Source: Takakia lepidozioides (lineage: Eukaryota > Plantae > Bryophyta). Taken from it: 64,000 nucleotides of DNA. The notes under the pieces are model-generated. The model did not search any database, was not told the DNA's origin, and was given only the letters and a program-made list of their open reading frames with translations. Below, piece after piece: positions 1 through 61,839 of the stretch; the first letter of the stretch is position 1; the number at the start of each line of letters is the position of its first letter. Location: assembly GCA_030704615.1 (NCBI GenBank), contig CM060734.1, positions 33,232,001 to 33,296,000 of the forward strand, written 5' to 3'. The position numbers and the translations under genes are program-made.

Positions 1-560
1 GCAAAGTCCACCCCTGCTAGAATCCTATCCATGACTCTCTGAAACTGCAGGAGCATTCTTAAGCCCAAATGGTAAGAACCGCCACTGATATAGGCAATCC
101 TTGCCGTGCTCATTGATCCCCCAGAATGCCGTCTTCTGCTTGTCCGCCTCCTTGATTGGCAACTGGTGATATCCGGATCGTAAATCCAAAGTGCTAAAGG
201 CCTTAGCATGCCCGATGGCATCAAAGATCTCCTCTGGTGTTGGCATGGCATACTTATCGGACTTGGTCTGACGATTTACAGGCCGGTAATCACCGCACAT
301 ACGTCTCTCCGTCCAATTGCCATAGACATCCTTCTTGGCTGGCATCACTGTGGCTGAAGCATACTCTCCACCAGAGAGCTCCACCAAACCTGCCTCCAGA
401 GATCTTGAGTCCTCATCTGAATCAAAGACCTCTCCATGTCACTGTATCTATAGGGTCTCCGAAAGATTGGCGTGTCAGTGGCCAACTCAATACGGATCTC
501 TTGACCCTTCAGTGCTCCCAAGTCCTTCAAACTGAAGGCAAAGCAATTCCTGTAAGCCCT
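1..560 (-). pseudogene. Gypsy reverse transcriptase, N-terminal part (frameshifted)
   Basis: ORFs 345..623 and 25..387 read PIFRRPYRYS..., EYASATVMPAKKD...RMCGDYRPVN...DKYAMP..EEIFD....AFSTLDLRSGYHQL...KTAF...YQWRFLPFGLKNAPA. After a frameshift it continues QRVMDRILAG. Confidence 0.95.
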
Positions 561-974
561 CAGGAACCGCCGTATACGTCGTCTCTCTCCTCCGGTGACA
601 ATGGGTCCAATGTCAGGCTCCAATTGTCCTCCGTAACTGCAACCTTAAGTCCAGTGGGCTTAGAGGTAGAGGACGCGTCCAGTGGTTGCTATGTTGCAAC
701 CTCTTGAGCAGTACTCCCTGCCTGCTCAGTCAATGACAAGGCCTCATCCTGCCCATCATCTCATCCTTGAGGACTCCTCAACCCGAGAAGAATCCCCAAC
801 CTCATCCATCACAGCCGCCTTGGCTGCCAACTCCCTCTGAACCTCGAGCACCTCCCACGTGTGCCATGGATGCATGCACCCCGTGGTCCTCACATGCTCG
901 CCCCCACTCACTGCCTGTACCGTCTCGGTAGGCAGAGAGACCATTGAGGGAAGTGTACTCCGCACTCTGCGTTG

Positions 975-1945
975 CTCAGCCAGAGCCAAGCTGATAATCC
1001 AGGTCAAGCAATTGAGATCCATTGCTTGCCCCAACACTTGACGACGTGATGCCTCAGAAAGAGACGACACCGCCGTGGTACCAGTGGTAAAACCCATTGC
1101 CCGCTCACGCTCGTCAGCATTAGGCTCCACTAACTGCTGCAACTGAGCATCCCACAGGAGGCCAGGTCCACTATCCCGGAAAGCATGCGATCCTGGGAAG
1201 CTGAGCAGTGTAGGTAATGCTGCTCGTGGTTGACCCACCTTGTTGACCACTGCCAAAGGCGAACGGTCATCGTGTCTCACACGCTGAGACTGCCTCCCTG
1301 TGTCCAGAATGTTATCCACTGTGAGATGTGCTGGCCGCTGCACCCCATCAAATGCACGCTTGAGCAGTGCGGGTGGCATCAAGTTAGTCCACCATAGCCG
1401 TGGACGATGAGCCCGTGACCCCACTGTAGCTGCATCTAGCAACACTGCTGACCCAAGCCACGACCGGACTTGATGCACACTGGCCATCACCCTGGCCCGA
1501 GAATCGCCCATCAGTGGCACATTCTCCAAGATGTATGCTGGAGATACAGCTTGATGAAGCTGCAAGTGGCGCAAAACCCGCACCATCTCCCAAAACAGAC
1601 CCGACCTCGAGTCTCGCAATCCATTGCCATGCCCGGCTGATGAATGCCCTTGGCAGGGCCAACCTGCCACTACCAGATCAATGGAGCCAACCCGCTCCAA
1701 ATCCTGCGCCCCCAGCAACGAAATGTGCTGGCAAGGCCTGCTGATATCCACGAATTGCAGACACCGACAACAACTCAGGGTACCGCTGCACCAACTGAGC
1801 AACATGGCGAAGTGAAACGCGTCGTGCAGTCTCATCCCTCTCCACATACAGGTAACGCCGAACTCGTACACCTGCCTGTAACACAGCAGCCAATCCGGTG
1901 CTGATCCCGCCAAACAAGTCCAGAAGACAAATGCCTTCATCCGGA
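975..1945 (-). CDS. DNMT3-like C5 cytosine DNA methyltransferase domain within retrotransposon pol (one frameshift at ~1725)
   Basis: Motif I LLDLFGGISTGL (~1935-1900), II YVERD, IV DLVVAGWPCQG (PC ~1655), GLRDSRSGLFWEMVRVL, VI YILENV (~1520), VIII AHRPRLWWTNL (~1400), IX ERERAMGF, X RRQVLGQAM (~1030). Spread over ORFs 1678..2061 and 756..2705. Confidence 0.93.
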
Positions 1946-2369
1946 TACTGCCACACAATAGGTGTGGTGTCCAATGGAGACAATTGAGGTGGTCCTGGTG
2001 CAATCCCCACACTCTCCTCCTCTCCTGACGGTACAAAAGCCTCCACCCAGGCTTGTTGCACCGTCGATCAGCATCCCGCTGCAAATCCTTGCTCGTGCCC
2101 CACAATGGAGTCTGAGCAACCATGGTAGGCAACTCCGCCATACCATACATGTCATCCTGCTCTCCCGGAGGTGGTACATCCTCTGAATGAGCATTGCCCT
2201 CAAGCAACTCTCTAGGCCAACTCACTGCCGCTGTGAATGCTGCTAGTGTCGGCATCTTGCCTCGCTGGGCAACCGCAACTCCTCCTATGAACGTCACAGG
2301 GAGCTGCACACGCCGGCCCTCCCCTGACTGCCATGCAGGCCTATAGGAAGCTGACTCCTCCCAAAAATC

Positions 2370-2700
2370 CAGGGTGAAGCCCATGGGGTACAACACTGCC
2401 CCACCAACCAGGACATCGTATGAGACTGCGTCTGTCACAATGGCCTTGGCTCGCATCACTGAGCCATCTGTAGGGTGATCCGGCCGTAGTCTGATAGCCA
2501 ACTCACGCCGTGTCATGCCCCGAGCCTGCTCCGATCCTCCCAGAGACGTCTGTATCTGGAAAGGACAAGGCTCCATATCCGCCTCCGTGAGGCCCAAGCC
2601 TGCAATAGCAGCTCTGCCCAGCATCAATGGCTGAGCTCCCGAGTCCAACAAGACCGCAGTGGCCGGTACCTCTTGCCTGCCGGTCCACTCAAAAGAAAAT
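2370..2700 (-). CDS. Retrotransposon aspartic protease domain
   Basis: AVLLDSGAQPLML (catalytic DSG) and the C-terminal YDVLVG motif in ORF 756..2705. Confidence 0.85.
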
Positions 2701-3049
2701 GCCATCCTGGTTGTCTAACATGACAACTCCAGGTGTCACCATGGCGCGCTCAATGGCTGGCCTAGCTGGCAGCTCCATCAACCTGGCAGCTGCAGCTTGC
2801 CATGGCGCCGCCGTGGCAGTCTTGACCCTCAAATCCGAGGATCCTCCGGCACTACACCTCCCACTATCTCCGCAGAAGATGAAGTAACCTCCCCACTCTC
2901 ACAGAGTGTAGCTGCCAGCCTGAACACCTCAGCTGGTCTTACCCCCGGCGTCGCAATCATGGTAGCCGAGAACAATGGAGCCTGGCACACAGATGTGGCC
3001 GCTCCTAGCAGCACACTAGCTGCCGTAGCCTTGGCAACACTAGGTAGTG

Positions 3050-4850
3050 GTGCTACCCGTGTAGCTCTCCCCAATGGCATAGTAACCTCCGCCTCGGTAA
3101 CAGTCGGCGAGAACTAGGTGCCATGGATGGCGTCGACACTGTCTCCGCCAATGTGAATGACTGAGGAAGCCTAGCCTGACGGCTTGCCTCCCCACGCTGT
3201 GGATCCAACTCCACCTCTGCACCTCGTGGCTCAGGAACTCGTGCTGCTCGAGTCACGGCTGCAGCAGACTCCACCTGCACTAGTGGTAGTGCTGCTCCAC
3301 ACATGAATCCCATGCCTCCCATATCTCCTCCCTCAGGAGCAGGAGGTGGACCATCCGGCCTTAGAGCCGGTACCACCTGAGCTGTAGCCATGGCAGCGAG
3401 CCTCTGCTCTAGCTGCTGAAGCCGGTTGGCCATGCCTTGGTCAACACCCTGACCTCCGCGTCCTTGGCCACGTTGAGCTTGCCCTTGGCCTCGTGGCTGG
3501 CCACCTCGTCCTCTCTGGGCTGCTCCACCTCCCCCCGGCCACCATTGTTCCCTTGGAACTGGCCTGGGCGCAACTCAGGATGCAAACCATAACACTGGGC
3601 CTCTCCATGCCCGTGCTTGCCACAATGCCCACACTGCAACTGTGCAGGCTGTGCATGTGCCGGCCCTTTGCCTCCCTCTGGGCAATCCTTCTTGACATGG
3701 GGTCCTCCACATGTCCAGCACACCACATCCGCCCGTTGTTGGCCAGCAAATGAAGGGAGAGACCCCTGCATCTGAGGTCCTCTCTGCCCTTCCCTGAGCT
3801 TCACCTGAGCCCCCTTGTTGCCTTGAGCACGTTGAGGTAGTGGTTGGCTAGGAGCACCACTACCCCGTGGTGTCTCCTTAGCAAATCCCACCATGACCAC
3901 TCGTTCCTCCACCATGTTGAGCTCTATCCGCTCTGCCAGCAAAAACACATTTGCTAAGGTGGGTTGGGCCGCTTGTAGGAGAGTTGCATCCCGCACCCTT
4001 CTCCTCAGCTCCTTGTCCAATATCCCATACCAGAATTGGACTGCCTGAGCTTCCGTAACCCCTTGGGTTACATTTATCAAGCGCCTCATGCGAGTGAAAG
4101 CCTCCCTCAAGCTCTCGGTCGGCTTCCGTTGGAACTCTTGCAAGCTCCGCAACTTCTCTGTCCTCACCCCTTGGTAGTTCCCTCTCAACTCTTTCGAAGA
4201 ACTCCACAACAGGGTTGAAGGCAGGCACGGGTGCTAGTGCTGGTGCGGTAGTGGCTTGGGTGGACGTCGTAGCTACTGTACCACCAGTCCCACTGCTACT
4301 TGCTGAAGCTGCCGGTGCAGCGGCAGGTGTAGCCACTGCCCTCGTGGCTCTAGTGCCCCTAGTGATGGAGACATAGTCGGGTGACCCAGTACATCCTCCA
4401 CTCCTCGATCTCAACCTCATGCCCCCGCCTGAACTCATGGTAATCATCCATAGGCGGCCCCTCAAGGTGCTGAAACAGCCCCTTCCATGCCATGAAAGGC
4501 GTAAATAGTTGTGGATTGCGCATTTGCTGCAAATCACACCAACTATCAAACTCTTGGATAAAATCATCCAACTCGATGGTGCCCACCGCCCCAGAGTACC
4601 TTCGTGGCCCCTTGGTAGCTCCATACATCTCCTCCATTGTGTCCCACAACAATGGCAAAGAAACAACTTGCACCGCCGGTATGAGTCCTCCTGATTCACA
4701 ATCCGAATCAGAACCTTCCGTAGAAGACACAGGAGGTGAAGGTGGCCTAAACCGCACACCTCGTCTCGTGTACCCACTAGTATCGCTAGTGCTCGAACCG
4801 GCACTGTCCCCAGCAACTAGTGGCACCTCCGTGTTGACACTCAACCGGTC
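3050..4850 (-). pseudogene. Gag polyprotein (frameshifted) with two zinc knuckles
   Basis: ORFs 4359..4844, 3878..4816 (part), 3409..4209 and 3053..3433. Capsid-like YSGAVGTIELDDFIQEF and LQEFQRKPTESLREAFTRMRRL; knuckles CWTCGGPHVKKDC and CGHCGKHGHGEAQC. Confidence 0.85.
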
Positions 4851-5539
4851 ATGAACATGTCCCTAACCCCTCTCCACAAGGTAACCGGGTAGAGAACCTG
4901 TTGCGGCTTATGGTTTGGAATACTAAGTTCCTAACATAGCCTACACCTGTACCTGCATCCACCGCAAGCACTCCTATGGTTGGCTGGTCATCACCTCCAA
5001 CCTCACCACAGGAGAAACAATGATGGTCTGGCTGGTCATCACCCCAGCCTCACCATCGACAGCATGCTCTAGGACTGGCCGGTGATCAAATCCGGACCAA
5101 TCACCTATAAAAACAAGCGCCCACACAAAACTAGCATGGCGCACAGTCAAGCATGCAGGTATGGAGGGGATCCAAACACAAGAAATCAGAACGACAACTC
5201 CCCACACAAAAACAACTCCACGGTGTTGCTCCTGCAAGGACACCCCAGCCCAAACCCGGACTGACTCTTGCCTCCACCTACGGAAAGGTCTTGGCCTAAT
5301 GAGAGGGTGGAAACTACGAGGAAGAGAAGCTAAAGCAATGCCTAACCCCAGCATGCCCTCATCCCAACACTTCCTCTCCTCTCTTCCCTCACTTGCATGA
5401 CCATGGGAATATCATGAAGATACTCCTCAAACCGCCCTCCACGAGCTTCAAAATTCGGCCTTCAAGACCACATGCCAGTCCTTAGGCAGTCCCAGTGCCT
5501 CCACGAGTCAGCACAGGCCGTCCACAGGTCAACACGGGC

Positions 5540-6115
5540 CCACACAGCTCACTGCTCACAGCCGTCACAGTCAGGCCACTGGGCACAGCCTGTCACAGCC
5601 CCTCATAGGTCACACACATCACAGCACAGGCCGGCACGTCACAGCCCCCACAGCCCGTCACAGCCCCACAGGCCACCACAGCCGTCACAGCCCCAAAGGC
5701 CACGGGCACAGCCTGTCACAGCCCCTCACAGCCCGTCACAGCCCCAAGGCCTCAGGCACGGCCCACAGCCCCAAAGGCCTCTGTCACAGCCCCACAGCCC
5801 CAAAGGCCTCAGGCACGGCCTGTCACAGCCCCTCACAGCCCGTCACAGCCTCAAAGGCCCAGGCACGGCCTGTCACAGCCCCTCACAGCCCATCACAGCC
5901 CCAAAGGCCATCACAGCCCCTCACAGCCCGTCAGGCAGCACAGCCTGTCACAGCCCCGCACAGTCTGTCACACAGCCTGTCACACAGCCCGTCACAGCCC
6001 ACAGGCCCACACCACAGCCCCTCACAGCCCCACACACACAGGCCCACGGCCTGACACAGCCCCTCACAGCCCGTCACAGCCCCAAAGGCCTCAGGCACAG
6101 CCCGTCACAGCCCCA
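5540..6115. repeat. Degenerate tandem array of (GT)CACAGCC(C) units in the retrotransposon leader
   Basis: Dozens of cacagcc/tcacagccc units are directly visible. Confidence 0.95.
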
Positions 6116-7295
6116 TCCATGGCCGCTCTGGCAGTTTAGCCATTTCTCCAAGGGGTTTAGCCACGCCAAGCTAGGGTTTGTGTCTCTTGGACTCTAGGCT
6201 TCTTCCACCGAGCTATGGCGGCTGTGAGGAAATCACAAGGTATTCTTGCTCTTTCGGCTCCTACACACCACCATAGTAGCCCTAAGCCATGAGGTTTGCC
6301 ACAAACAAGCCTTCTTCTCACTTAGCCTCCCCAAACACGCCACTAAACTCAATGGCAAACAACCAAGCCCTGCTGGTTCCCAGCCCTGCTCTTGCCATGA
6401 CAAGAGCCCTCTCAATGCTGAAGCTCGAGATTGAAACCCAATCTCACCATACTCCACAAAGTGCATTGATTTGCCCCAAGCCAAACAGCCCTTTCGCTTG
6501 GTCTTGCAATCCTTCACACAATGAAAGCTCGCATTCCCAAGTCCAGTTCTCAGCTTTGCCACCAAAGCCACTATAACTTGCTTGACTGGTCCTCTTCCCA
6601 ATCGTTGCTCATGCATGTACACAATCTGAAACCATCAAGGTGCTCTGGAATTACCTGCAGCATGGTGCTTTCATCTCTGAAGCTGAAGATCGAATGCCAA
6701 GGTCTACCACCTCGTAACCCACATCGCCTCCGCTTCTAAGAACCAAGAGCTCCACGGTGCTCCTTGCATAACAACTTGGTTTCTCTCATTCTCAAGCAAA
6801 AACCACAAGTGCTACAACTAACTCGTATCTGGCACTCACAGATACGAGCTCATCTTTCTCGAGTGATAAAGAAGAAGGAAACAAGCACGAGTTCACAAAT
6901 CTGAAGCATAAACTCATGCATATATAACCTCATCACTCAAATACAAGTCAAGCCAAGTGCACCCCACGCCATGGGGAATCCACACTACGGCGCCATAGCT
7001 AGGCGCGGTGAGGCTCAACTCGAGAAAGATGAGCCTCCCGCGCTTGCCATGAAGATAACCACTCCAGGGCCTAAATCTGCCTTGACCCCTGGATTGACAC
7101 TTGAGCCAATCCCAAATGTCAATATGTAAAAGCTAGCTATTTCCTAGCTAGTTTCACACTAGTGGTAAAATAACTTGACAGTTGTAGTTGGGCAGTAGAG
7201 GTACGAAGTTCTTGCATCTGGAACTGAAGACTCTACAATGTGACGACCATTTCCGCAAATGTGCCTTCCATCTTAACTAACTAAGGAACAAACTT

Positions 7296-7306
7296 TAGTC
7301 TCGCCA
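7296..7306 (-). promoter_or_regulatory. Putative primer binding site (TGGCGAGACTA)
   Basis: Minus strand reads ...CCTTGACA|GTT|TGGCGAGACTA: LTR terminal CA, a 3-nt spacer, then TGG (complement of tRNA CCA). The cognate tRNA was not identified. Confidence 0.65.
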
Positions 7307-7309
7307 AAC

Positions 7310-7952
7310 TGTCAAGGACGAGAGCATGACTGAACACAAATAAGAGATCAGACTAGAGGTACAAGACTAGACAAGAAGTCAAGGTCGGCGTGGCCGAATG
7401 CATGATGAGTAAATAGGAATCAAGATGATCTTTATAACAATGAACAAGAGTATAAGATATTGGAACACGACTTGAATACTGGAATGCTGGAAACTGGACT
7501 GGAGTACCAGATACTGGAAACTGGGCTAGAGTACTGGACTGGAGTACTGGACTGGAGTACTGGAAACTGGAAACAAGAGTAGCTTATTGCTATTGGCAAG
7601 ACTGAAGAGTGTCCAGTCTCGCCTCCTATATATACTGGCTACTGAGAAGCTTCCCCTATGGAGGTTTTTTGATGGAGAAGTTTCCAAAATTAAACAAAGG
7701 TTTCTTGATGGAGAAGCTTCCTTAAACAAATGAGGTATCTTGATGGAGAAGTTTCTTCCAAATGAAGCTTCCTGAGCAGTTTTCCAAGTTATTCTTGGTA
7801 ATTTGATAAACTCCTGGTAACTTGGTAAGTAATGGTAAATCATGATAGATAATGGTAAATCACGGTAAGTTATGATAACTTCCGGTAACATGATAATTTG
7901 GTAACTTCTGGTATTTACTCCTGGTAAGTTCTTTTGGGCTATGTCCGTGATA
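7310..7952 (-). repeat. 5' LTR of the DNMT-Gypsy element (~643 bp)
   Basis: Imperfect terminal inverted repeats TGTCAAGGAC...GTCCGTGATA (8/10 match), adjacent PBS, TATA-like TATATATAGG on the minus strand (~7625-7634) and internal ACTGGA tandem repeats (7475-7575). The second LTR is outside the window. Confidence 0.75.
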
Positions 7953-15928: not shown

Positions 15929-17250
15929 TATGTCAATGTCCACCATTGGTGGATTTATTCCTTTCTTCCTATGTTCATCTGCCACCAAGTCTGGTGTTAT
16001 GACAAGTCCTGTAGCATAATGCCATTTGTTGGTGTGCAAATATCCAGTGTGCAAAAGTAGGTTCATCTAAGGGCATGCCAAATGGTTGTTCCTTATGAGC
16101 TTTTATTGGGTTTTTTTTTGGGGAGGGAGACTCTCCTTTAAGCCACTATGCAGTTAGTCTTCACAGTGGTTGAGTGTGCCTAGACTGGGCTGAGCTAGTT
16201 GTATAGGTTGGAAGTTTGAATTTGTGTACAGAATTTCCATTTCACCCCAAACGAAGTAGGAACTCTTGTGCAAGCACAAATCTGGCTCATACAGTCCAGT
16301 CTAATTATCTTATTTTGGGGATTTACTCCAAAGGCGCGCTTTCTCTTTGGCCAAGTTCTAATCAGGTAGAAGCGCTATATTCATAGCTGTCTTAGAAAAC
16401 ATTATGAGAGTTCAATTATGGAACAGCCAATGTTGTGTCTGGTATCTGCATTGTTGAATGTTTGATGAAATGAGTTATAGTTGTAGCCTTAAGATATGAA
16501 GTGGCCACACATTCTCCAATATTGTCGGTCAGCATGCATGTCTAGCCAGTGGGTGTTTTACTGTTGCTGTAGAGAGGTCTATGCATGATAGTGAGAACAT
16601 TGGTACTTGATGCACTCATGTGTCCTCCAAGGCCCAATGAGACGAGTCCATTGATGTCTTAATAGTGTCTGAGAGACTGGAGAGACCTGACTCGCTCCGC
16701 CTTCAGCACAATTCGAATGGAGGCATTCACACAAACACAAGTTGCTCCAATGTAGTAAAACAGAAACTCGATTTCTAGTTTATGAAGCATCAGGCTGTGG
16801 TTTCATTTCGTTTTCCTCCTCAGGTGTCTCAAAACTTGGCGGTTGTCCTTAACTTCGATAGTTCTCTGTTCTTGCTATCCTTAGCAACGTAGAGCTGGCT
16901 GAAAATCAGTTAGTGTTAGCAGTATCACAATGGGACTGCTGAGCTCCACTCAGACAGCAAGGAGAGCATCAGAAATTTGAAAAAGTAAAAGAAAAAGAAG
17001 CATTCCTGCTCAACGAAAAGCACAGGAGGCCATTGAAGGATTGAACCCAGGAACGCCCTGGTTATGCGTGCTCTAGTGCAAGAGTAGGAAGAGAGTGCGG
17101 GCTGTCTCCGAGTTGTTTAGTTGCCCTGCGATGGTTTCGCAGGTCGTGATCGCTGCGCTTACATGCAATCTCGAGTGTTGAGAAGTCTGAAGTTACAAAT
17201 CTTCTCCTCGGAAAGGGCAGAAAGCAAAGCACTGGCATCTTCTGGCAGGA

Positions 17251-19155
17251 ATGGACGCTCCTGTTGTCACTGTGAGGGCGAAGTACCTGGTAAATGGGCC
17301 CAAGGGCCAAAGCATGCAAGGGGTTCTGGTGATGAGCGGGAGCCGATTCAAGTGGACATCAAATGATCCCAAGGCGGCAGATAAGAATGTTGATGTTGAT
17401 TTCCTTGCGGTAAAATCCCATAAGTCTAGCAAGGAGACACCAAAATCAAAGAAAGCGCTGCTCAACTTATGCACAGAGGGTGAGGGGAATGCGGATGGTG
17501 GGTATCTGTTTGAATTCCAGAATTTTCAGGAGAGGGATACATGCCGTGACATTGTTGCAAACGCTTTATCCAAGCAGCGGCCTCCAGGGTCAGCGCAATC
17601 ATCAGGGCAATCATCTGGGGGCCCCTCTGTGCAACCGCCGGGTTCGGCTGCCGCTGAACCCGTTGCTGTCTCGCACAATGACCAATTGGATTTTATGGAA
17701 ATGGAGCGGCGTATGAAACTTCTTCAAGAAGATCGTGAACTACAAAAGCTGCATCAGCAGCTCGTGATCAGCGGTGTGCTGTCGGAAGCAGAGTTTTGGG
17801 CCGCTCGAAAGCACATGCTGGAAGATGAAGGATCACGCATTCCAAAGCAGCGAACAGGGCTCAAGAGTGCTATGCTTGCTGATGTTCGTCCTCTCACTGA
17901 CGGCCGAACTAACAAGGTAACATTCAACCTCACACCAGAGATCATTCATCAGATCTTCGCTGAGAAGCCTGCAGTGCACAGGGCATTTCTAATGAATGTA
18001 CCATCAAAGATGTCTGAGATAGATTTCTGGACAAAATATTGTAGAGCAGAGTACCTGTACCGCACCAAGAATGCTGCGGCAGCAGCCGCCGAAGCTGCTG
18101 ACGATGAGGATCTGGCAGTTTTTACTAGGGCTGATGACATCCTTGCCAGCTCCGCCCGTCGGAAGATTCAGAGAGTGGATCCGACACTGGATATGGCAGC
18201 TGATTTGGCAGATGATTACCTTTCCCTACCAGGGCATGGGATTTTGAGGGATGGGAATAAGGAGAGTACAGAGCTGGTGGAAGGGGCCGGTAAGCGCACC
18301 ATTGTGCATGATATAAACCGGCATGCGGCTGTGGTTCTCGAAGGCAGGCCTCTGGATGCGGCACTGAAGGATACTACGACCGTTGCTCATGCCCTGGCTA
18401 GGGCACAACAAGCGGATGCAGCAGAGGAGCAGACAGATGTGCAGGTGGAGAAAAGGCGGATGAACAGAGTGCATAATATGACTGAAATTGAAGACTTGCG
18501 AGGCGATCAAGCTCCTGCCTACGTGCCTCTCTGCATCCAGGACCCCAGGAAGTATTTTGACTCACAGCAGGCGAATGCCACAGGGGATGCTGCATCTGCT
18601 GCAGCAAGTTCTAATCCATTTCAATTGGACCCATCCCAGGCGCTGCAAGCATTTCAGCAACAGTTGACAGGATTTCAAATGGCTGGTTCTGGAGACAATG
18701 TAATCTCACCTGACATTGCAGTCAAGGTCCTCACTGATCTCACACACCATATTGCAAGCTCCAAATACACAACTGGAGTTACTGCAGAGCGAACTGTTCT
18801 GGAGAGCTTACCCCGTGCCTCAAGGGATGAGTTTTTACAGCATTCAGCCACTGTTAATGAACTTCTTCGGCATTTCTGGGCAGCATACCCGCTGACATCT
18901 GTCTTGCTTGTGAAGAAAGCAAACCGCTTGAAGGATGCCATGGGTCAGCTATACAGCCGCATCCAGATGACCAAGGAGGGTGCACAGCCTGACGTGAGGC
19001 ATCAGTTGTCAAGGCTCTTACAACCGCTTTTTCAAGCCCTTGATGCTGCATTCGCACACCATGAAGCAGAGGCAGGCAAGAGGGCAGCCAGGACTTCACA
19101 GAGGCCCCTTGGTATGAACAGTGCCATAAACGGTGTGACCCCTGTAACTGCTTAG
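17251..19155 (+). CDS. TFB1: TFIIH subunit p62 / TFB1 (PH domain plus two BSD domains), single exon, 634 aa
   Basis: Intact ORF. BSD motifs LQKLHQQLVISGVLSEAEFW and FNLTPEIIHQIFAEKPAV...SEIDFWTKY; C-terminal ELLRHFWAAYP. Confidence 0.92.
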   Translation: MDAPVVTVRAKYLVNGPKGQSMQGVLVMSGSRFKWTSNDPKAADKNVDVDFLAVKSHKSSKETPKSKKALLNLCTEGEGNADGGYLFEFQNFQERDTCRDIVANALSKQRPPGSAQSSGQSSGGPSVQPPGSAAAEPVAVSHNDQLDFMEMERRMKLLQEDRELQKLHQQLVISGVLSEAEFWAARKHMLEDEGSRIPKQRTGLKSAMLADVRPLTDGRTNKVTFNLTPEIIHQIFAEKPAVHRAFLMNVPSKMSEIDFWTKYCRAEYLYRTKNAAAAAAEAADDEDLAVFTRADDILASSARRKIQRVDPTLDMAADLADDYLSLPGHGILRDGNKESTELVEGAGKRTIVHDINRHAAVVLEGRPLDAALKDTTTVAHALARAQQADAAEEQTDVQVEKRRMNRVHNMTEIEDLRGDQAPAYVPLCIQDPRKYFDSQQANATGDAASAAASSNPFQLDPSQALQAFQQQLTGFQMAGSGDNVISPDIAVKVLTDLTHHIASSKYTTGVTAERTVLESLPRASRDEFLQHSATVNELLRHFWAAYPLTSVLLVKKANRLKDAMGQLYSRIQMTKEGAQPDVRHQLSRLLQPLFQALDAAFAHHEAEAGKRAARTSQRPLGMNSAINGVTPVTA

Positions 19156-21389: not shown

Positions 21390-24300
21390 TCTGTGAAGCC
21401 TACCCCCCACGAAAAATCCTGAGCTCCGCGAAGGGAAAATAAATAATAAGGAAATATCACCCTCCACCGCTCGGTGAAAAACCTACCAAGGGAAAACCTG
21501 CAAGTTAAGCCGCTGAGAAGAGAAGAGGATCAAGCTGAAGTAGATCGGCTAAGAAGATCAAGACATCACCCCACCGTGCGCCTCTCCACATTGATACATG
21601 TAAGATCAAAAACTAGTCAAGGAAACAGGTTCATCCCGCACTTCAGTATTAGAGCCTTGTGGACAAAGGAGAGCACGTCGCCCACGTAAAATTTGATAGA
21701 TCAAGTATGGACCGTCGATCTTGAGCTTAGATTTGCATGCATGCTTGTCATGCTGTAATCGAACACACATGGTCTGTCCTACCTGAAACATGTTAGAATA
21801 CTTGACACGCTTGTTAAAATTACGGGCCTGGGTTAGCTGAGCCTTACCAATGTTCGTCTTGGTATCATGGATAGACACCGCATGCCGAGCATGAAGATCC
21901 TCAAAAAGGTCTCAAGATCAACTGGATCAGCAACAGTAGAGATAAGAGGGGTGGAATGCAAAGGAGAAACACATTTGCGACCATACAACAACTCAAAAGG
22001 AGTCTTCTTGGTGCTAGCATGCACGGCGGTGCGATAAGCAAAGAGAATAGGGGGAAGAAAGGTATCCCACTCCCTGGAAAGTACGCCATTCTTCTCCAAC
22101 ATTCGGCAAAGCGTTTGGTTGAAGTGTTCCGTGAGGCCATTGGTCTGGGATGGTATGGGGCAGTGGTAGAATGCTTAACATCAAAATTGAAGCAAATCAC
22201 CGTGAGGAGCTGGTTACAAAATTCCTTGCCCTGATCCGTTAATATCTCCCGAGGACACCCATGCCGCATAAGGATCTCATTGAAGAAGAACTAAGCTACA
22301 ACATCACTTGCATTAGAATGCAAAGGCCGCACTTCTATCCACTTAGTCAAGTAGTCGGTAGCAACACAAAGGTAGCTTCGACCCTTTGATGTGAGTGCGA
22401 GGGGTCCTACTAAATCAATGTCAACACGAGCAAAAGCATGGGTGACAGGCAAAGGCTGTAGCTCATACAAGATTCGGGCCCTAAAGAGAGCAATGTTAGC
22501 ACGACAAGCTTCACACTTAGAGATGAACTCCGTGACGTCCCGGTGGATGCCCAGTCAATAGTAAACCTCTTGGATGCGAGCCACGGTTTTCTTGATACTA
22601 AGGTGACCTGTATACAAGGAACAATGGAAACGCTCCAATAAAGCATTCAGCTGGCTCCGTGGTGGCACCTCCAAGTAGCATGGCACTCCCCCTCTAGTGA
22701 GCTCCTTGAAAAGCTTATCACCTATGAAACGGTGAGTAGACACATGATACAAAATTTGTTTACGCAAGGACTAAGAAAGGCTAGTTGGCGAACGCCCTGA
22801 TTGGCATCGCTGGAGTAGCGCAGCATGTAGCTGATCATCCATGACTGCACTGCACATAAGAGGCAGATATTGGGCTTTCGAGAAGGTGGTCTGGAGTGCC
22901 TGCACCTATGATCTCCAGCGAGAGATACCTTCACCTCATTTGTTACTACTCGTGGACAGCCAAATCAAGACTTGAGGCTCAAGTGCAGCAGCTGAATTAC
23001 AACATACTCGGGGGCCGAGGAAAGAAAAGAGCTGAAACACAACAAGGAACTTCCACCAAACCATCCGAATTCTCTCTAAGCGATAAATCCACCACACACA
23101 CACACTAATACACGAACAAATCAACCAGGATCATCAAGAAGGCTGGACCAGCCCCAAGCAGCCAATATGCCATTGGAATCCAAGGCCAAGGGGTGTTGAT
23201 CTGCACAAAGAAGGTTGAGAAGAGGGCAGGATCAGGAGGAGGGGCTGCATCAGCAACAACAAGGTCATCCAAGGTGAGCATAGGCCTGTTGACAGGAGGA
23301 TCAACCCGTGTGATCGCTTCAACATTTGTGTTTTCCTTGCCCTTCTTGTAGACTATATCCATGTCAAATTCCTGTAGGTACATAACCCATCTAGCAAGTC
23401 TGCCATGGAATTCCCTTGGCTTAACAAGAGCCTTAAGTGGAAGATGATTAGTCTCTATCACAAACCGGCTGCCATGTAAATATTGTCTGAAATGCTTCAC
23501 ACCAAATACAAGGGCTAGACCCTCCTTATCAGATATGGAATAATTTCTTTCATGACGATCTAGACGACGAGATGCATAAGCTATTACATGCTCATTGTCT
23601 TCTACAACTTGACATAAGATTGCAGAGATGGCAACATCTGATGCATCAGTCTGAAGCAAGAAAGGTAACTCAAAGTTGGGAAACATCAGAATGGGAGCTG
23701 AACACAAAGCCTTGCGAAGGGTGTCAAAGGCAGCTTGTTGGGAGAAGGTCCATTCAAACCTGGCATCTTTGCACAACACCTTGGTCAAGGGGTGAGCAAG
23801 CTTGACAAAGTTCTTTATGAAGCGCCTATAATAATAAGTCAGACCAAGGAAGGATTTGATACAATGTTTATCCCTGGGGATATGAAAGCCCTAAACAGAC
23901 TCAAGCTTGGCAGGATCAGGAAGCAAACCATTTTTGGACAGAATATAACCAAGGAAGTGCAGCTCAGGCATGAACAACTCACACTTCTTGGGCTTTACTT
24001 TGAGACCTGCAGTGCGCAATTTGCTGAAAACACGCTGCAGATCAGTCAAGTGAGCATCAAAACTGGCTGAGTATACATTGATATCATCAACATACATTAA
24101 GGCACACTCCCAGCGAAGATTGCCCAAGACCATGTCCATGAGGTGTTGGAATGTAGAGGTGGCATTGCACAAATCAAAAAGCATGGTCTCATATTGGTAT
24201 TTGCCCATGCGACACACAAATGAAGTCTTTTCCTTGGCTGCTTCAGTAAGAGGAACTTGCCAGATGCAAGATCAAGAGAGGAGAAAATTGTAGCACCATG

Positions 24301-24834
24301 CAATTGATCCAAGGTCTCATTAATCCTGGGTAGTGGGTATGCATCCTTTTTGGTGATGTCATTCAGTTTCCTGAAGTCAACATATAAGCGGGTGGTGCCA
24401 TCTTTCTTACCAACCAGGACAATTGGACTAGCCCAAGGAGAAACTGAAGGCTTAATCACACCAGCATCAAGCATTTTCTGGACTTCTTCTTGGACTATAG
24501 CATGTTCTTTAACACTCTCTCGGTATGCAAATTGTTTAATAAGGGGGCCTTCCGTGACAATGTTATGTTGAAGCATGGGAGTGCGCCCTAAATCAGTGGA
24601 TCCCAAACTAAAAACATCTAGATTCGTTGCAATAAGCATCTCCACTCTCCTCCTTTGACCTGAGGAGAGAGTGGTGCCCATCTTAATTTCAGATATTACT
24701 TTTGTGAGGGCTGTCTTACCTTCTAGGCTGAGATCATGGATAGGTGGTGGTGCCACTGCAGCAACAACATCCAAGGGGCCATGTTGGATGCCAATGGCCT
24801 CAAGTCCAAAGCTAGCTTGTACCTCTTGTATTTC

Positions 24835-25110
24835 AGCAATGGGTAGAACAGTGATGCGAGCTAGAACCTGTCCCTTCTTAATAGTCACTGGGAAGCGCTC
24901 GGGATTAGCAATCAGAATCTTGACTTCTTGCCTATATCCTCTATCTAGAACATTAGTGGCCACCAGGCAATGCTTAAGGGCAGTCAGTCTCCTCCATCCT
25001 TCAACTTCTAGGAAATGAGCACCTGGACATAAGAAGGTCAAACCAGACTTGACCACCTTCTAGGTCATGGCAGGGATGGTGATGTTGAGAGGTGCACGAA
25101 TTAGAGTAGA
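24835..25110 (-). pseudogene. dUTPase-like domain upstream of RT
   Basis: APLNITIPA...VKSGL...NVLDRGYRQEVKILIANP..FPVTIKKGQVLARI resembles dUTPase motifs III/IV (GVIDxDYRGEIxV..N....IxxGDRIAQ). Confidence 0.7.
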
Positions 25111-25979: not shown

Positions 25980-28900
25980 CCAACCTCCACTGGGCAGTGG
26001 AGGTTGGATGATATCTGTTGATGAAATCAACCACATGGATGAACAATGGATAATGAATAAGCCCTCTGTAGACTAAGGAAGCAGGAATGAACAATGGATG
26101 AACAATGGATAATGAATAAGCCCTCTGTAGACTAAGGAAGCAGGGATGAACAATGGATGAACAATGGATAATGAATAAGCCCTCTGTAGACACTTGAGAC
26201 TAAGGAAGCAGGGAGAGACTCAGAGTCTGCTTCAGAATTACCCTATGGGCAGAGTGGTGCAGGATAGGCAAAGAGGTACACGTTGTCCAGAGAGGTGCAG
26301 GATGTCCAGAGAGGTGTGTGAGAGAAAAGAAGCAAGTGAGAGGTTCAAAGTGGGAAGTTGGTGTTGTGTGGATTCGGACGTTATATAGAGGTGACTTGTA
26401 ACTTTCATCTTTGAATCGCTCCAATGGCAGTGTGGTATGCTTTCTCTCCCGGATCGATTGTGGCCACTGTGGATTATGGCGAAATCGAACGACTTATTTC
26501 AACTTGCGAAATCTCGGCTTCATTGAAAGTGTGCACAATTTTCCATTTATTGATAGCAGCCATTGTCACATTAATTATGGACAACGATAACGGCCGCGAT
26601 CAGACTGAATTCTATCGTACTTGTACGTTAGTAGGACTACAAGTCTGGCATCATTATCGTGCGGCTCTGACAGTAGACTCTGGAATAAGCGTGAAGGATG
26701 TCAATTCTGACAAGTGGCCTGGAGAAATGAAGTCAGGCGGCTAATCGCCACAACTAATTCGGGACTGCACATTAACAATCGATCATTATAATTAGCTGGG
26801 AGGAATCCGGAGGTGAACTATAAAGCACTTTGAGATTGTTCTGTTTATATTTATCGTGCTGTTACAGTGAATAAAACACTTGGGCAGGGCGGGGCATTAC
26901 ATGCCGACGCATTGCATTGGATAGCGAGGGCGGTGCATTACAGGTGTGTGGAATGCTCTGTCGTGCCTTGCTTGCTGGCACATGTTTAATGTAGGGATGG
27001 ACCCCTCGTGTCGGGTATCCCTCAATAAATGGGCAGTCCCTATGGTGGCTCTGGACCTTAAATCGAGGAATGCCCGACACGAGGGGCCATCTACTATCCT
27101 TAAAGCCGTATGTCTGTCAGGGAATATTGACGCCTGGCGGCTAACAGCCGAAAGTAATTGTGGACGGCTCAATATGAGACAATGATTATACAGTGTGACA
27201 AATCCGTAGGTACAGCGTTGTGTCCTCTGGCAGATTGAGTTTGAAACGACTGCCCAGGCGTCTCACGTGGGTGGTCACATGTGCGTTTGGGGGGTGGTTT
27301 GTTGGCTTCGAATCTATTTTAAGATTTTTGTAAGCGTGAGGGTTGCAGAGTCTGACAATGGCGTCATTACAATCATTTCGTCTTTTTTTCATTCGTCTCT
27401 CCAGTCGTCTGTCCAAACGTGTGTGCATTCGTGGAGTTGAACAAATTTCATCTGCGTGGATGGACAGTATTAATGTTAGTTTGCATGGATGGGGCAGAAC
27501 ATCCATTTGGGCCGCGCGACCATTCGATTTCGGACGGAGGCGATGGTTCAGATCATCCTTGAAGGTCGCTTATAAGGGGTGCGCTCTTTGAGCCCGGCCT
27601 TTGGGCTTCCCATTTTCTACGCGTAAGTGCTGCACGAGTGAAAGCTTAACAGTTGAGAGAGGAGACTGTGAAAGAGAAGAGTTTTGGAGCTCATTTTGCA
27701 GCGACTGGACACTGGAGCGTGGAGAGAAAGAGCAGACTTGGCCGAGTGCAGAGAGAGGAGAGGGTGAAAGGTGAGAGAGTGAAATAGGCGAAATTTGAAG
27801 AGCGGGGAGGAGAGACCGGACAGTGGCAAGTGGAGAGTGACGAGTGTAGAGGCAAGAGCACAGTGCAATTACCGGCAGGCGGAGGTGCGGAAGAGAGTAT
27901 CAAACGAAGGACTGTGGTTGCAGGGGCACCAAAATGGCCGGCATAAGCAGGTACAACATTACAAACTCCTTTTTTTCGTCTTCTGTTTCACGTTTTGTGT
28001 TGGCCTGTTCTGAATTCATGTGTTGGCTTGTTCTCAGTTTTGTGTTGGCCCGCTCTCGATTCATGTGGCCTGTTCAAGATTCATTTCGTTTCTATCCTGC
28101 TTCATTCTCTGCTGCACTGCACTGTCTTCAGTGCTTCAGTCCGTGCTTTAGTGCACATTAGGTTTCTGTTTCATTGTTTACTTCGTTGTTTACTTCAATG
28201 CTGTTTCATTCTCTGTCAATTCATTTCACTCCTGCTCCATTCTGTGCTTCAGTGCATTCTTGCGTCATTGCTTCACTGTTGTTTTTCAATTCACCGATGG
28301 TTTGTAGGGTGATTTTGTGTGGTGGTTTTGTGTGCAATTGGGTTTGTGTGTGCTTGTTCTGGTCGATTAGGGCAATGGTTTAGGGTGGCGGGAGATTACC
28401 GTGCTGGTTGTATTGCTTGTTTTGTTCATTGTGGTGGTTTATTGAGGACAGTGGTTTCGGAAATGCCCGGATGTTTATTTCTCAACCGTTTCTTGATCCC
28501 CAAATCCAGCGTTAGTTGATGCATTTCTTCCCATTCAAATTCGATTCTGAATGGAAATTTTCATTTCTTATCCAATTATGTCGAATTCGGCAATTCTGAA
28601 AAACCACGATAGCCTAGTCTACTTGTATTCTACAGTAGACATATGCTAACTGTAGGCTTCGTGCAGGCCATAGTAGAGTATTCGTAGACCCATATCATGC
28701 ACATGAGCAACCAGAAACTGGAACCTCCACTGCCCAGTGGAGGTTCGCGTGAATTCTGTATGCGGAAGCTGAAAGACATTTTTTTAAAGTAAGGATGAAA
28801 TAGGATAATTACGGGAAAATTGAAATCAGTTTGAGACGATGTGGGAACGAGTGATGGAATCATATGTGTAACATTGTAAGTGTGACACATACTTTCCAAC

Positions 28901-30932: not shown

Positions 30933-31645
30933 GTGTTGAACTACAAAATTGGATATGTCCCCACACTTTCAACTCTCTCACCATTTTACATTAACTGTAG
31001 CAGGAACTTCTCGAGGATCTTTCCGACAGCGAATTGAAGGAGTACTACCGGGAGTGGCCTGCGAAGATTGTATGGTCTACCGATGAACAAAGGCTCCTGC
31101 AGTTGTCAAAGCTCCTCAACGATCCCAATAAGGCGCAAAAGTTTGATACAACAATGCCGGAGAAAGTTGCGCATGCGCGAATGTTATTCAACCTGAGGGG
31201 GAAGCCAAGGAAAATACAACGATCACACCACAAAGTCCGAGACGAAACAATGGAAGGTATGCATTTATGGAATCAAAATCTACTATTCACATTCATTTTA
31301 TGCTAAAGAATACTTCTGTTGTCGGAGTGACAACTAATTTATCCTTGAATGAATGTGCAGGAGTTCATGTTTGCCTGTCATTTGATACTGGAAATGGGTA
31401 GCATTAAGGAGGCAATGGTCCTGGTACTTTGCGACGACGACGTTTGGAAGATCTGGGAAGATGTTTTCAAAAACTGGGAGCAGGGAAAGCTACTCGACCC
31501 GCTTAGGATACAGTACAAGGGTGAACAACAACAACAGCTCACGAAATCTGTTATCGCAAAGCTGCAAGGGTTGAACAGATGGCAGCTGATTAAAGTTGCG
31601 CAGAAAATCCTGGACCTGAAATTGACCATTCGAGATTACAAAGAG
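29993..31645 (+). pseudogene. Intron-containing pseudogene with a ParB/Srx-like domain, truncated by a LINE
   Basis: One frame runs from 29993 to 30868 through two stops (TAG 30464, TGA 30791): VYRPLNIKHTDEVKSRL...VYLAP...FFVIGGQHTIVAAK. GT-AG introns at ~30869-31003 and ~31257-31360; further exons to ~31645. Confidence 0.6.
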
Positions 31646-60121: not shown

Positions 60122-61839
60122 CTAAAGGTCCGCAACTCGGACTCCCCTTGCATCTTCCTCTTGCATCTCTTTGACCAATCTTGCCCGCTCTGCTGCCTGC
60201 AATTTCCATTATCATGTCAATATTTGTACTCACTCTCCAAGCACCAAGAACGTCCAAGATATAAAAACTGAGGACAAAGTAAGTAGATGAGAGTAGGGAG
60301 GGAGAAGGGGGAGGCTTATTAACTCCATCTGACTGAATTAGGGAAAATGAAAACATTAACAAAATACATACTTGTCGCATTTTAAGGAGGGTCACATCTT
60401 CATAGGCGCGGTAGCCAGCCCCTATCACTGGCTTCACGCCTTGATATGGCTGTGCTGGCGCTGCAGCACCCTGTTGCCCTGTTTTCAAAGGAGGAGCTCC
60501 TTCTGCAGAGATGACAGGCACCACCAGCAATGGATTGGACATGTCCCCACACAGTGTCTCAGTTGCTGCTATCTGCACCCAGAACCAAACAGACTGACTT
60601 AACACTTACACTGAAAACATCACTGTGCACAGTCCTTGTCTTAATAGCCCACCATACAATAGTTTCTGTGCAACATAGCAATCTCAACTTGGATTGACAA
60701 AGAAGGAATAAGAAGGATGTCACTTACTGCAGCCTGCTTGGAACCCATAACGAGCAGTGCAGAGCTCTTTTTCAGTGACTTCCCTTGGCGGATCACCACA
60801 TCCTCCACACTACCAAACTGCCCAAAAATCTCCTTCAGACGAGCTGCCGAGTAGCCCCCTCCCCCGCCTTCCAGACAGGACCACGACACCTTGATAGTCT
60901 TGGCCAAATCCGATGCTTCCAACCCAGCTGTCTGTGTAAAGACCTCTGTCTTGGGAAGGTTGTTGTCTTGGTGCAGGTGCTTTCCTTGCTTCTGGGCATG
61001 TGCTTTCTGAATCCGTGCAATTTCCGCTTTCAGGCGCCGAGCAACCTGCTCCTCAGCAGCCTTGGCCTGCTGCTCCAACTCGTGAGCACGCTCTCGTTCA
61101 CACAGATCTCGCATCATCTTTTGACGCTTTTCACTCTGCTGCTTTTCATTATTTGAACGCTCTCTGCGTACAAGAAGTAGCTCATCATACACAATACGGG
61201 CCTTCTCGTCCCCAAGAACTTCATAGGCCTTTTGCAGCCTCACAAACTCAGCAGCTGCCAACCAAGGACACACCCATCCATGTCAGTCCACCAGCGTCAA
61301 TTGCAATCCTACGATGCCAAATCACACGCCACCTACAGAATCGTAGATACTTCTATCCATATTGTGGGGTTGGAGACTGTCAGTGTGAAAAGCGTGTGTG
61401 AGAGAAGAAATTCTCCGGCCTGCATAACAATAGCAGGTCTTGAAAACCTTGACAGTCATTGTGAAGGTCAAAGAGGGAGACCAGACATTAAAACCCTAAT
61501 GAACTTTTGGGAAGCAAGCAACTACTCAGACTTCATATGATAATTTGTCTCCCGCCGCACAACTTGACATGAAACGTAGACAGAATTGGAAGTAGGAGTC
61601 AGTGGAGGAGAAGGACCCAAAACACTGAGGTGCACATGAGCAACAGACAGAGACAGTGAAACTAATAACCCACCGGCCACAGGATCATCTCCGCGTTTGT
61701 CAGGATGGCAAAGCAAGGCGCGGGCCCGATATGCTTTTCTGATTCTTGCCTGAGGCACCCCAGGTCCGCCGCCCTCCAGCCCCAGCACTACGTACAGGTC
61801 TTCCTCCATCCCTACATTGAGCCCTGCCCCCCTCTTCAT
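60122..61839 (-). CDS. DNAJC17/Cwf23-like J-domain plus RRM splicing-associated protein; exons 61839 (or 61809)-61674, 61254-60728, 60572-60372, 60196-60122
   Basis: J-domain DLYVVLGL...IRKAYRARALLCHPDKRGDDP..AAEFVRLQKAYEVL.DEKAR..YD, a coiled coil, RRM-like TIKVSW...YSAARLKEIFGQFGSVEDVVI, and the family C-terminus YEDVTLLKMRQAAERARL. Splice phases are consistent. Confidence 0.9.

What the first reader, a model, noticed from the sequence alone, without database searches (positions are those of the whole stretch)
1..7952. Gypsy LTR retrotransposon carrying its own DNMT3-like cytosine methyltransferase between protease and RT
Seen: pol reads protease (LLDSGA), then a linker, then a C5-MTase domain with its motifs in canonical order (FGG motif I, PCQ, ENV, RxR, motif X), then a linker and Gypsy RT. 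All are on one strand and separated only by small frameshifts and one stop. Established: AHRPRLWWTNL and ERERAMGF...RRQVLGQAM closely parallel DNMT3 (AHRARYFWGNL; EMERVFGF...RQRLLGRSW), and the motif order is not the permuted DRM order. From memory, DNMT-bearing retrotransposons have been reported in Symbiodinium and the charophyte Klebsormidium (de Mendoza et al. 2018), so the concept has precedent. Here the flanking genes look like those of a land plant, which would extend the range. Inference: the protease would release the DNMT into the virus-like particle, where it could methylate nascent cDNA (self-camouflage or self-regulation) or alter host chromatin at insertion sites.
Basis: partly seen in the sequence, partly recalled or inferred. 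Interest (0 to 1): 0.93.

Follow-up and report, generated by a model that had tools for sequence, protein, structure and literature searches.

The report
Moss retrotransposon packing its own methyltransferase
This is a broken copy of an abundant jumping gene in what is likely a moss, with close relatives in liverworts and peat mosses, that encodes a DNMT3-like DNA-methylating enzyme in the same gene as its shell protein, ahead of a conserved stop codon that ribosomes likely read through, so the enzyme would be made in bulk and likely methylates the element's new DNA copies.

Summary
The minus strand carries Gypsy gag, protease, an unpermuted DNMT3-like methyltransferase and the start of RT. 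It is no one-off or contaminant: sibling copies are abundant, 62-75% identical relatives sit in Marchantia, Calypogeia and Sphagnum, the domain is under purifying selection, and a flanking host gene groups with mosses.

Two corrections. First, the DNMT is not inside Pol. It ends the Gag-protease frame, before a fixed in-frame TAG-CAA-CCA, a TMV-type leaky-stop context. Such a stop lies in 33 of 39 close relatives and 0 of 32 distant ones. Second, relatives have split A..B-A-B ends with 4-bp target duplications, and this copy likely starts near 7180, not 7952.

The kind is known from one alga (KnitGypsy-Dnmt3). Ten literature searches showed no land-plant report and no leaky stop. Readthrough and self-methylation of cDNA are inferred, not shown. 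This scan has noted the family before on other DNA.

The parts
7183..7952 (-). Separate LTR-like high-copy repeat abutting the element; probably not this element's own terminal repeat
   Evidence: No similarity to 6380-7180, the rest of the window or the 80 metagenome loci. Sibling contigs leave the window sequence at 7185 (X5 3 contigs, X6 1). Depth in X6 is 21 and 9 here against 38-334 in bins 1-7200, but X5 depth is similar on both sides. Inferred.
6380..7180 (-). Likely 5' terminal repeat 'A' of the element, starting TGTCA
   Evidence: TGTCA start as in relatives. X7 record 23 matches 6380-7180 and runs on unlike at both ends, as a 3' B-A-B end would. Only a weak 30-nt match to the A repeat of L038 (E 0.06). 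Inferred.
5507..6152 (.). Degenerate array of about 10-nt units in the 5' untranslated region
3400..4637 (-). gag: capsid-like region and two zinc-knuckle-like Cys/His motifs (3720-3697, 3633-3607); broken by frameshifts; lower limit approximate
   Evidence: PF03732 E 0.0064; tblastn with Marchantia P0001 gag; motifs
2361..2669 (-). Aspartic protease, LLDSGA at 2651-2634
   Evidence: Pfam did not hit the window ORF; aligned relatives hit PF13650/PF13975 at this place.
972..1935 (-). DNMT3-like C5 cytosine methyltransferase domain, canonical motif order, catalytic motifs intact, one frame break near 1725
   Evidence: fold of the 73% identical relative P0253
683..691 (-). Family-wide in-frame stop TAG followed by CAA CCA (type I readthrough context UAG-CAR-YYA); readthrough inferred
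   Evidence: No variant listed at 683-691 in 4 runs while 681 and 694 vary (7 rows not shown). Same site in relatives. Motif from PMC3542737.
1..682 (-). Start of the pol frame: linker and N-terminal part of reverse transcriptase, cut by the window edge before the YxDD motif
   Evidence: RVT_1 E 4.2e-11; 85% identity to Marchantia and L012 RT
17191..19155 (+). Host TFIIH p62 gene, used only to place the host

Best explanation
This is a broken copy of a multicopy bryophyte Ty3/Gypsy family whose first reading frame is Gag-protease-DNMT and ends in a conserved stop that ribosomes likely read through at a low rate to make RT, RNase H and integrase, so the methyltransferase would be made at capsid levels and likely methylates the element's own new cDNA. 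Shown: domain order, intact catalytic motifs, DNMT3-type fold of a close relative, purifying selection, multicopy state, the fixed in-frame stop and its context, and split ends with 4-bp target duplications in relatives. Inferred: readthrough (about 0.8); co-packaging and protease release (about 0.7, from general LTR-element biology); catalytic activity (about 0.75); the element's own cDNA as main substrate (about 0.55); insertion by integrase cutting a CA-nn-TG junction in a circular cDNA (about 0.6). The new copy would then arrive already methylated, resembling host heterochromatin.
For: Five Marchantia gene models of 1278-1281 aa are open Gag-PR-DNMT frames that all end 97 aa after the GQAMD motif; Calypogeia P0251 ends after 99 aa. 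L030 and L034 read DNMT, TAG-CAG-TTA or TAG-CAA-TCA, then 1047 open codons holding RT, RNase H, integrase and PHD. Stop plus CARYYN at the homologous place in 33 of 39 close loci and 0 of 32 distant loci; background 0.16 per 420 nt. The two codons after the stop encode Q-P, Q-L or Q-S, which fits a nucleotide constraint better than a protein one. DNMT dN/dS is 0.09-0.15 between lineages and the domain is as conserved as the protease or more. A profile ranks DNMT3A/B/C (E 3e-19 to 1e-13) above DRM (1e-8 and weaker); all 33 listed Foldseek rows are DNMT3. DNMT and RT trees group the same rows. TMV-type readthrough is 6-10% in plants (PMC2754532). Related retrotransposon DNMT3s of Symbiodinium methylate CG de novo in yeast (PMC5890265).
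Against: No activity, expression or readthrough datum exists here. The Klebsormidium enzyme was inactive in yeast (inconclusive by its authors). 29 of the 33 stop contexts are CAACCC or CAACCT, off the consensus at position 6, and 28 of these are followed at once by ATG, which allows reinitiation instead. Most of the 33 loci are near-copies, so they stand for about four lineages. A sister group of 32 loci and Closterium carry the DNMT in one frame with RT, so bulk production is not required for the family. Recent copy pairs give DNMT dN/dS 0.66-0.78 (L012 against L013 and L014), which I read as decay after insertion.
Confidence: 0.55

Rival explanations
1. The enzyme is active but acts on chromatin at or after integration: it travels with the integration complex, whose integrase ends in a PHD finger, and methylates the flanks or the inserted copy.
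For: A PHD finger follows the integrase in many relatives. DNMT3 enzymes work on chromatin with histone readers (PMC6453930 passages; the PHD-like ADD domain is recalled).
Against: DNMT and PHD lie on opposite sides of the stop and would be made at different levels. Bulk production suits the particle better (inference). The PHD lies outside this window.
Confidence: 0.2
2. The stop is real but not leaky: RT-integrase is made by reinitiation, by a spliced or shorter RNA, or from a nearby ATG. The DNMT would still be made at Gag levels.
For: ATG directly after the six-base context in 28 of 29 Sphagnum-like loci. Marchantia and Sphagnum gene models P0004, P0005 and P0024 skip the stop, apparently by predicted introns.
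Against: No ATG at that place in the window, L030, L031 or L034, while CAR-YYN and the frame are kept. The gene models are automatic.
Confidence: 0.15
3. The domain is kept as a DNA- or RNA-binding protein or as a decoy that interferes with host methyltransferases, and catalysis does not matter.
For: No activity of the Klebsormidium enzyme in yeast. The distant group has WECQG in place of WPCQG.
Against: Catalytic Cys, ENV, RxR and SAM-binding motifs are kept across lineages with saturated synonymous sites.
Confidence: 0.08
4. One-off insertion of a host DNMT3 piece, or an algal contaminant or chimeric contig.
For: None found. No whole genome was held, and the 3' end of this copy cannot be seen.
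Against: Depth over the DNMT equals that over gag, protease and RT in three runs and falls to 0-7 beyond 8100. One contig spans 994-2675 and one 540-1000. The same order occurs in chromosome-scale Marchantia records and dozens of loci. The host gene groups with mosses at 100/100.
Confidence: 0.01

Closest known systems
KnitGypsy-Dnmt3 of Klebsormidium nitens (de Mendoza et al. 2018, PMC5890265; 'Gypsy-DNMT3' in bioRxiv 10.64898/2026.05.21.726589)
   Same: Gypsy domains, intronless unpermuted DNMT3-related domain, purifying selection, and repeats arranged A-coding-B-A-B (Fig. 4c legend; here in relatives).
   Different: Host is a land plant. The paper places the DNMT in the Pol ORF; here it ends the Gag-protease frame before a fixed stop. 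No Klebsormidium sequence came up, so kinship was not tested on a tree.
Plant host DNMT3 (PpDNMT3a/b; Yaari et al. 2019, PMC6453930) and animal DNMT3A/B/C
   Same: Motif order, closest sequence profile and fold.
   Different: Only 20-23% identity to DNMT3A/B in the structural alignment. No DUF3444, PWWP or ADD hit in 26 relatives scanned. Embedded in a polyprotein.
Type I (tobamovirus) stop-codon readthrough, UAG-CAR-YYA (PMC3542737); candidate in rice Gypsy RIRE2 (cited in PMC2754532)
   Same: Stop and six-base context, in frame ahead of the polymerase.
   Different: Here it lies after Gag-protease-DNMT. The Sphagnum-like subfamily ends the hexamer in C or T. Readthrough was not measured.
DIRS-order elements with split direct repeats, including SymbioDIRS-Dnmt3
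   Same: A-coding-B-A-B repeat order and a DNMT3-related cargo.
   Different: DDE integrase (rve, H2C2) instead of tyrosine recombinase, TG...CA ends, polypurine tract and 4-bp target duplication.

Membership tests
Ty3/Gypsy retrotransposon | Domain order gag, protease, RT, RNase H, integrase | tested here: met
   gag, protease and RT in the window; RNase H and integrase follow in relatives such as L030, L034, L038
Ty3/Gypsy retrotransposon | Two identical long terminal repeats | tested here: not met
   Five relatives with both ends (L035, L038, L047, L052, L057) show A..B-A-B. This copy's 3' end is outside the window.
Ty3/Gypsy retrotransposon | TG...CA ends and 4-6 bp target-site duplication | tested here: met
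   4-bp duplication in 4 of 5 relatives (L035, L038, L052, L057; L047 end not found). Not visible for this copy.
Ty3/Gypsy retrotransposon | tRNA primer-binding site behind the 5' repeat | tested here: inconclusive
   None seen by eye in the 40 nt behind A in the relatives printed; no tRNA set was searched
KnitGypsy-Dnmt3 type | Unpermuted, intronless DNMT3-related domain in a Gypsy element | tested here: met
KnitGypsy-Dnmt3 type | Repeats A-coding-B-A-B | tested here: met
   Met in relatives of both groups. For this copy only indirect.
KnitGypsy-Dnmt3 type | DNMT in the same ORF as RT | tested here: not met
   Fixed stop in 33 of 39 close loci. Met in the distant group and Closterium P0037.
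KnitGypsy-Dnmt3 type | Purifying selection on the DNMT | tested here: met
   dN/dS 0.126 (L030/L031), 0.112 (L030/L034), 0.087 (L052/L044); window pieces 0.08-0.14 where not saturated
KnitGypsy-Dnmt3 type | One clade with the Klebsormidium retro-DNMTs | not testable with these tools
   No Klebsormidium-named row among the 63 + 72 hits
DNMT3 family | Motifs I, IV (PC), VI (ENV), VIII (RxR), X in canonical order and DNMT3 as nearest fold | tested here: met
DNMT3 family | Placement in the DNMT3 clade against DNMT1, DRM and bacterial enzymes | not tested
   The tree holds only retroelement domains; no host DNMT sequence was available from a tool
DNMT3 family | De novo cytosine methylation | not testable with these tools
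   needs an assay
DRM | Circularly permuted motif order | tested here: not met
   Profile positions 1-128 match the C-terminal part of DRM chains (230-351) but the N-terminal part of DNMT3A
Type I readthrough site | In-frame UAG-CAR-YYA ahead of the polymerase | tested here: met
   Window, L030, L031, L034, L040 match fully; 29 loci differ at position 6
Type I readthrough site | Measured readthrough | not testable with these tools
   needs a reporter or peptides
DIRS order | Tyrosine recombinase | tested here: not met
   No recombinase family among 26 relatives scanned; rve and Integrase_H2C2 in those that reach that far

The most novel reading that the evidence does not exclude
An ancient green-plant Gypsy lineage, alive from chlorophytes to mosses and liverworts, runs a self-methylating life cycle. 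A leaky stop loads each particle with capsid-level amounts of an active DNMT3-type enzyme, the cDNA is methylated before it meets the host genome, and a DDE integrase inserts it by cutting an internal palindromic CA-nn-TG site of a circular cDNA, a route unlike textbook LTR elements. The same enzyme could add de novo methylation to the bryophyte genome independently of host DNMT3 and RdDM.
Probability: 0.3. Interest if true: 0.85.

Novelty: new variant of a known kind. Interest (0 to 1): 0.62.

Why it matters
Why a transposon would carry the enzyme that silences it has been open since 2018, and the one green-lineage enzyme tested gave no activity. Open-frame relatives sit unlabelled among the gene models of Marchantia polymorpha (for example Mp4g09160, MpVg00370, Mp5g06330), a model plant with methylation mutants, so the question becomes directly testable. 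The stop gives a clear prediction (DNMT at Gag levels, RT at a few percent), and the split ends predict an unusual integration route. Surveys of bryophyte DNA methyltransferases should also account for these copies.

Tried and rejected
No whole genome was held, so copies could not be counted. Summed contig depth shows a multicopy state but is no copy number. Viral contigs: nothing with P0001; with alignment A1, 30 loci matching only a short methyltransferase stretch at E 8e-12 to 1e-4, not used. No RNA holder listed. X13, only guessed to be RNA, holds one sibling contig across 540-1000; I do not count it as expression. Exact look-ups of the host p62 protein found nothing. No tRNA in the window. 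The 17-nt end at 7952 occurs once in the window. The ESM Atlas gave generic PF00145 clusters, the first one Streptophyta. Most window-versus-relative dS values were saturated.

Rows dropped: 9 of the 80 metagenome loci lacked the DNMT end or 360 nt behind it. My script put L010 and L027 in the distant group by alignment end; I moved them to the close group by identity (67-69%) and counted both as misses, because the L027 match lies inside RT after a deletion. Tree labels 'open' for P0005 and P0272 are unreliable: P0005 lacks the linker, and P0272 was not inspected. 'Stop' labels of proteins that merely end after the DNMT were not checked on DNA. The trees are quick, midpoint-rooted and lack an outgroup.

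No complex prediction or second fold was run.

Literature searches without a land-plant report or a leaky stop. The library lacks most subscription papers, and the supplementary figures of PMC5890265 and PMC12344493 and the bioRxiv supplements were not seen; they may hold bryophyte sequences in their trees.
Full report
Observation. The first 4.6 kb of the window encode, on the minus strand, gag (start 4637, two Cys/His knuckles), an aspartic protease (LLDSGA 2651-2634), a C5 cytosine methyltransferase (about 1935-972) and the N-terminal part of a reverse transcriptase that runs off the window edge. Pfam gives PF00145 at E 7.9e-13 and RVT_1 at E 4.2e-11. All 25 PDB sequence hits are DNMT3A, B or C. 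A profile of 18 family rows ranks DNMT3 chains at E 3e-19 to 1e-13, DRM chains at 1e-8 and weaker, and HhaI, HaeIII and DNMT2 lower; the DRM match falls on the C-terminal part of those chains, which confirms that the order here is not permuted. A model of the natural relative P0253, 73% identical to the window piece, has pLDDT 87.5, and all 33 listed Foldseek rows are DNMT3 structures.

A family, not an accident. No whole genome was held. Contigs of four public runs cover the stretch; in three of them summed depth over the DNMT is like that over gag, protease and RT, and falls to 0-7 beyond 8100. Single contigs bridge protease to DNMT (994-2675) and the post-DNMT linker to the start of pol (540-1000). 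At the frame breaks sibling contigs differ from this copy by small indels (12 best rows listed, 76 not shown), so the breaks are private, through decay or assembly error. Protein searches gave 63 longer and 72 similar-length relatives. Named hosts are Marchantia polymorpha (62-73% identity in the top eight rows), Calypogeia fissa (75%), three Sphagnum species, Closterium, Chromochloris and Monoraphidium. No vascular plant and no Klebsormidium name appeared, which in word-limited searches does not show absence. The cluster of Marchantia P0001 has 18 members; the 15 listed are all Marchantia and five are 1278-1281 aa. The flanking TFIIH p62 gene groups with Sphagnum, Ceratodon and Physcomitrium clusters at 100/100 and branches first among them, so the host is likely an early-branching moss; this rests on one gene.

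Selection and history. Between lineages the DNMT domain has dN/dS 0.126 (L030/L031), 0.112 (L030/L034) and 0.087 (L052/L044). The window pieces keep about 70% amino-acid identity to Sphagnum-like loci while synonymous sites are at or near saturation, against 60% for the protease. Two recent pairs give 0.66 and 0.78, which I read as decay after insertion. Quick trees of 58 DNMT and 43 RT rows place the window with Marchantia and the Sphagnum-like loci in both (SH-aLRT 99 each) and recover the same outer groups. Three layouts exist: protease-DNMT-stop-RT (this group), protease-DNMT-RT in one frame (distant metagenome group, Closterium), and RT-RNase H-DNMT-integrase-PHD (25 rows, including the two chlorophytes). 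No host DNMT was in the trees, so the donor was not tested.

The stop. Marchantia proteins end 97 aa after the GQAMD motif and Calypogeia P0251 after 99, which pointed to a programmed end. Of 80 metagenome loci kept (of 311 confirmed), 71 held the DNMT end and enough DNA behind it. Among the 39 close ones, 33 carry TAG or TAA followed by CAR-YYN at the homologous place; among the 32 distant ones none does; background is 0.16 per 420 nt. In L030 and L034 this stop is the only one between DNMT and RT and is followed by 1047 open codons with RT, RNase H, integrase and PHD. The window has TAG CAA CCA at 691-683. No variant is listed there in four runs while 681 and 694 vary, and counting the sibling indels puts the TAG in frame with both DNMT and RT in siblings (7 rows not shown). 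UAG-CAR-YYA is the tobamovirus type I readthrough motif and also works on UAA (PMC3542737, passages). It gave 6-10% readthrough in transgenic plants, and the same paper cites a rice Gypsy candidate (PMC2754532, passages). Against: the loci stand for only about four lineages, 29 contexts end in C or T instead of A, and 28 of those are followed by ATG; the window, L030, L031 and L034 have no ATG there.

The ends. Five relatives with both ends show A..B-A-B instead of paired LTRs. A starts TGTCA, a purine tract precedes the first B, the last B ends in GACA, and 4 of 5 have a 4-bp target duplication. The inner B-A junction is a near-palindrome, CACGACA-nn-TGTCA(T/C)G with single changes, in 11 loci. 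Opening a two-repeat circle at such a junction would give exactly A..B-A-B; this is inference. The 2018 paper notes the same repeat order for KnitGypsy-Dnmt3 in the legend of Fig. 4c without discussing it in the parts I read. In the window, TGTCA at 7180, loose ends of sibling contigs at 7185 that resemble by eye the end of B in L038, and a contig matching only 6380-7180 suggest that the element starts at 7180. The segment 7183-7952 matches nothing else held and is probably a separate repeat.

Mechanism. Most likely the first frame gives Gag-protease-DNMT in bulk and occasional readthrough adds RT, RNase H, integrase and PHD. The DNMT would be co-assembled into the particle, cut free by the protease and methylate the new cDNA, which then enters the genome pre-marked. 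Everything after the anatomy is inferred. Rivals are action on chromatin at the insertion site, a non-leaky stop with separate pol initiation, and a non-catalytic role. The yeast test of the Klebsormidium domain was negative and called inconclusive, while SymbioDIRS-Dnmt3 domains methylated CG.

Comparison with print. PMC5890265 (seen: parts 1 and 3 of 7, section 11 whole, passages, a term search of 3 supplementary text files; figures not seen) describes the kind in K. nitens, with 0 mentions of Marchantia or Physcomitrella in the main text. The 2026 bioRxiv preprint (passages) names 'streptophytes (Gypsy-DNMT3)' once and has no 'readthrough' or 'stop codon'. PMC12344493 (passages, 1 supplementary file searched) repeats 'streptophytes and dinoflagellates'. 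The plant LTR survey PMC6317226 (passages) has no 'methyltransferase' or 'PHD' and notes that some groups have a Gag-protease first ORF. Passages of PMC6453930, PMC9985172, PMC11982613, PMC11244446, PMC10952607 and bioRxiv 10.1101/363937 showed no retroelement DNMT in land plants. The ten searches are listed under Tried and rejected. The word 'streptophytes' may already cover bryophytes in figures I could not see.

Earlier notes of this scan. A look-up by sequence found nothing. Look-ups by words and by genome, made after my own tests of the stop and the repeats, list 37 findings and 68 notes in this genome with the same readings. They are unchecked AI notes and are not counted as support. The junction and target-duplication script was sent together with those look-ups.

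Verdict. A real feature and a new variant of a known kind: a bryophyte branch of the Gypsy-DNMT3 elements with a likely leaky stop and split ends. Interest 0.62.

Noticed in passing
window 23105-25059 (-): A second, unrelated Gypsy-like element with a dUTPase domain (PF00692, E 1.4e-6) just before RT, then RNase H. Its RT is far from the DNMT family.
   Followed up: partly
window 31594-33910 (+): Frameshifted LINE-type RT with zf-RVT.
   Followed up: no
window 17191-19155 (+): TFIIH p62 as one open frame of 654 codons; branches as sister to all other moss sequences in the tree.
   Followed up: yes
window 60641-61282 (-): Exon of a DnaJ-domain gene (weak PF00226).
   Followed up: no
window 26035-26211: Three tandem copies of a 59-nt unit.
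   Followed up: no
P0030-P0060, P0302, P0307, P0314: A clade of 25 rows, including Chromochloris and Monoraphidium proteins, carries the related DNMT between RNase H and integrase, so the domain has moved within the polyprotein.
   Followed up: partly
window 972-1935 and 45-405 against P0251, P0001, P0005: Element proteins are more alike between this moss and liverworts (DNMT 73-75%, RT 85%) than the host p62 is (58-61%). Strong constraint or old horizontal transfer; synonymous sites against Sphagnum-like loci are near saturation.
   Followed up: partly
P0274: A family member labelled as a protein of a 'Candidatus Obscuribacterales' MAG on a 2.4-kb contig, likely plant DNA in a bacterial bin.
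   Followed up: no
L043-L080: The distant group, with one open frame, has Glu in place of the Pro before the catalytic Cys (WECQG), as Closterium P0037 and P0025 do.
   Followed up: partly
window 7178-7185: The separate repeat 7183-7952 starts like an A repeat, ends in ACA and joins the element by two bases, mimicking the family's inner B-A junction; unexplained.
   Followed up: partly
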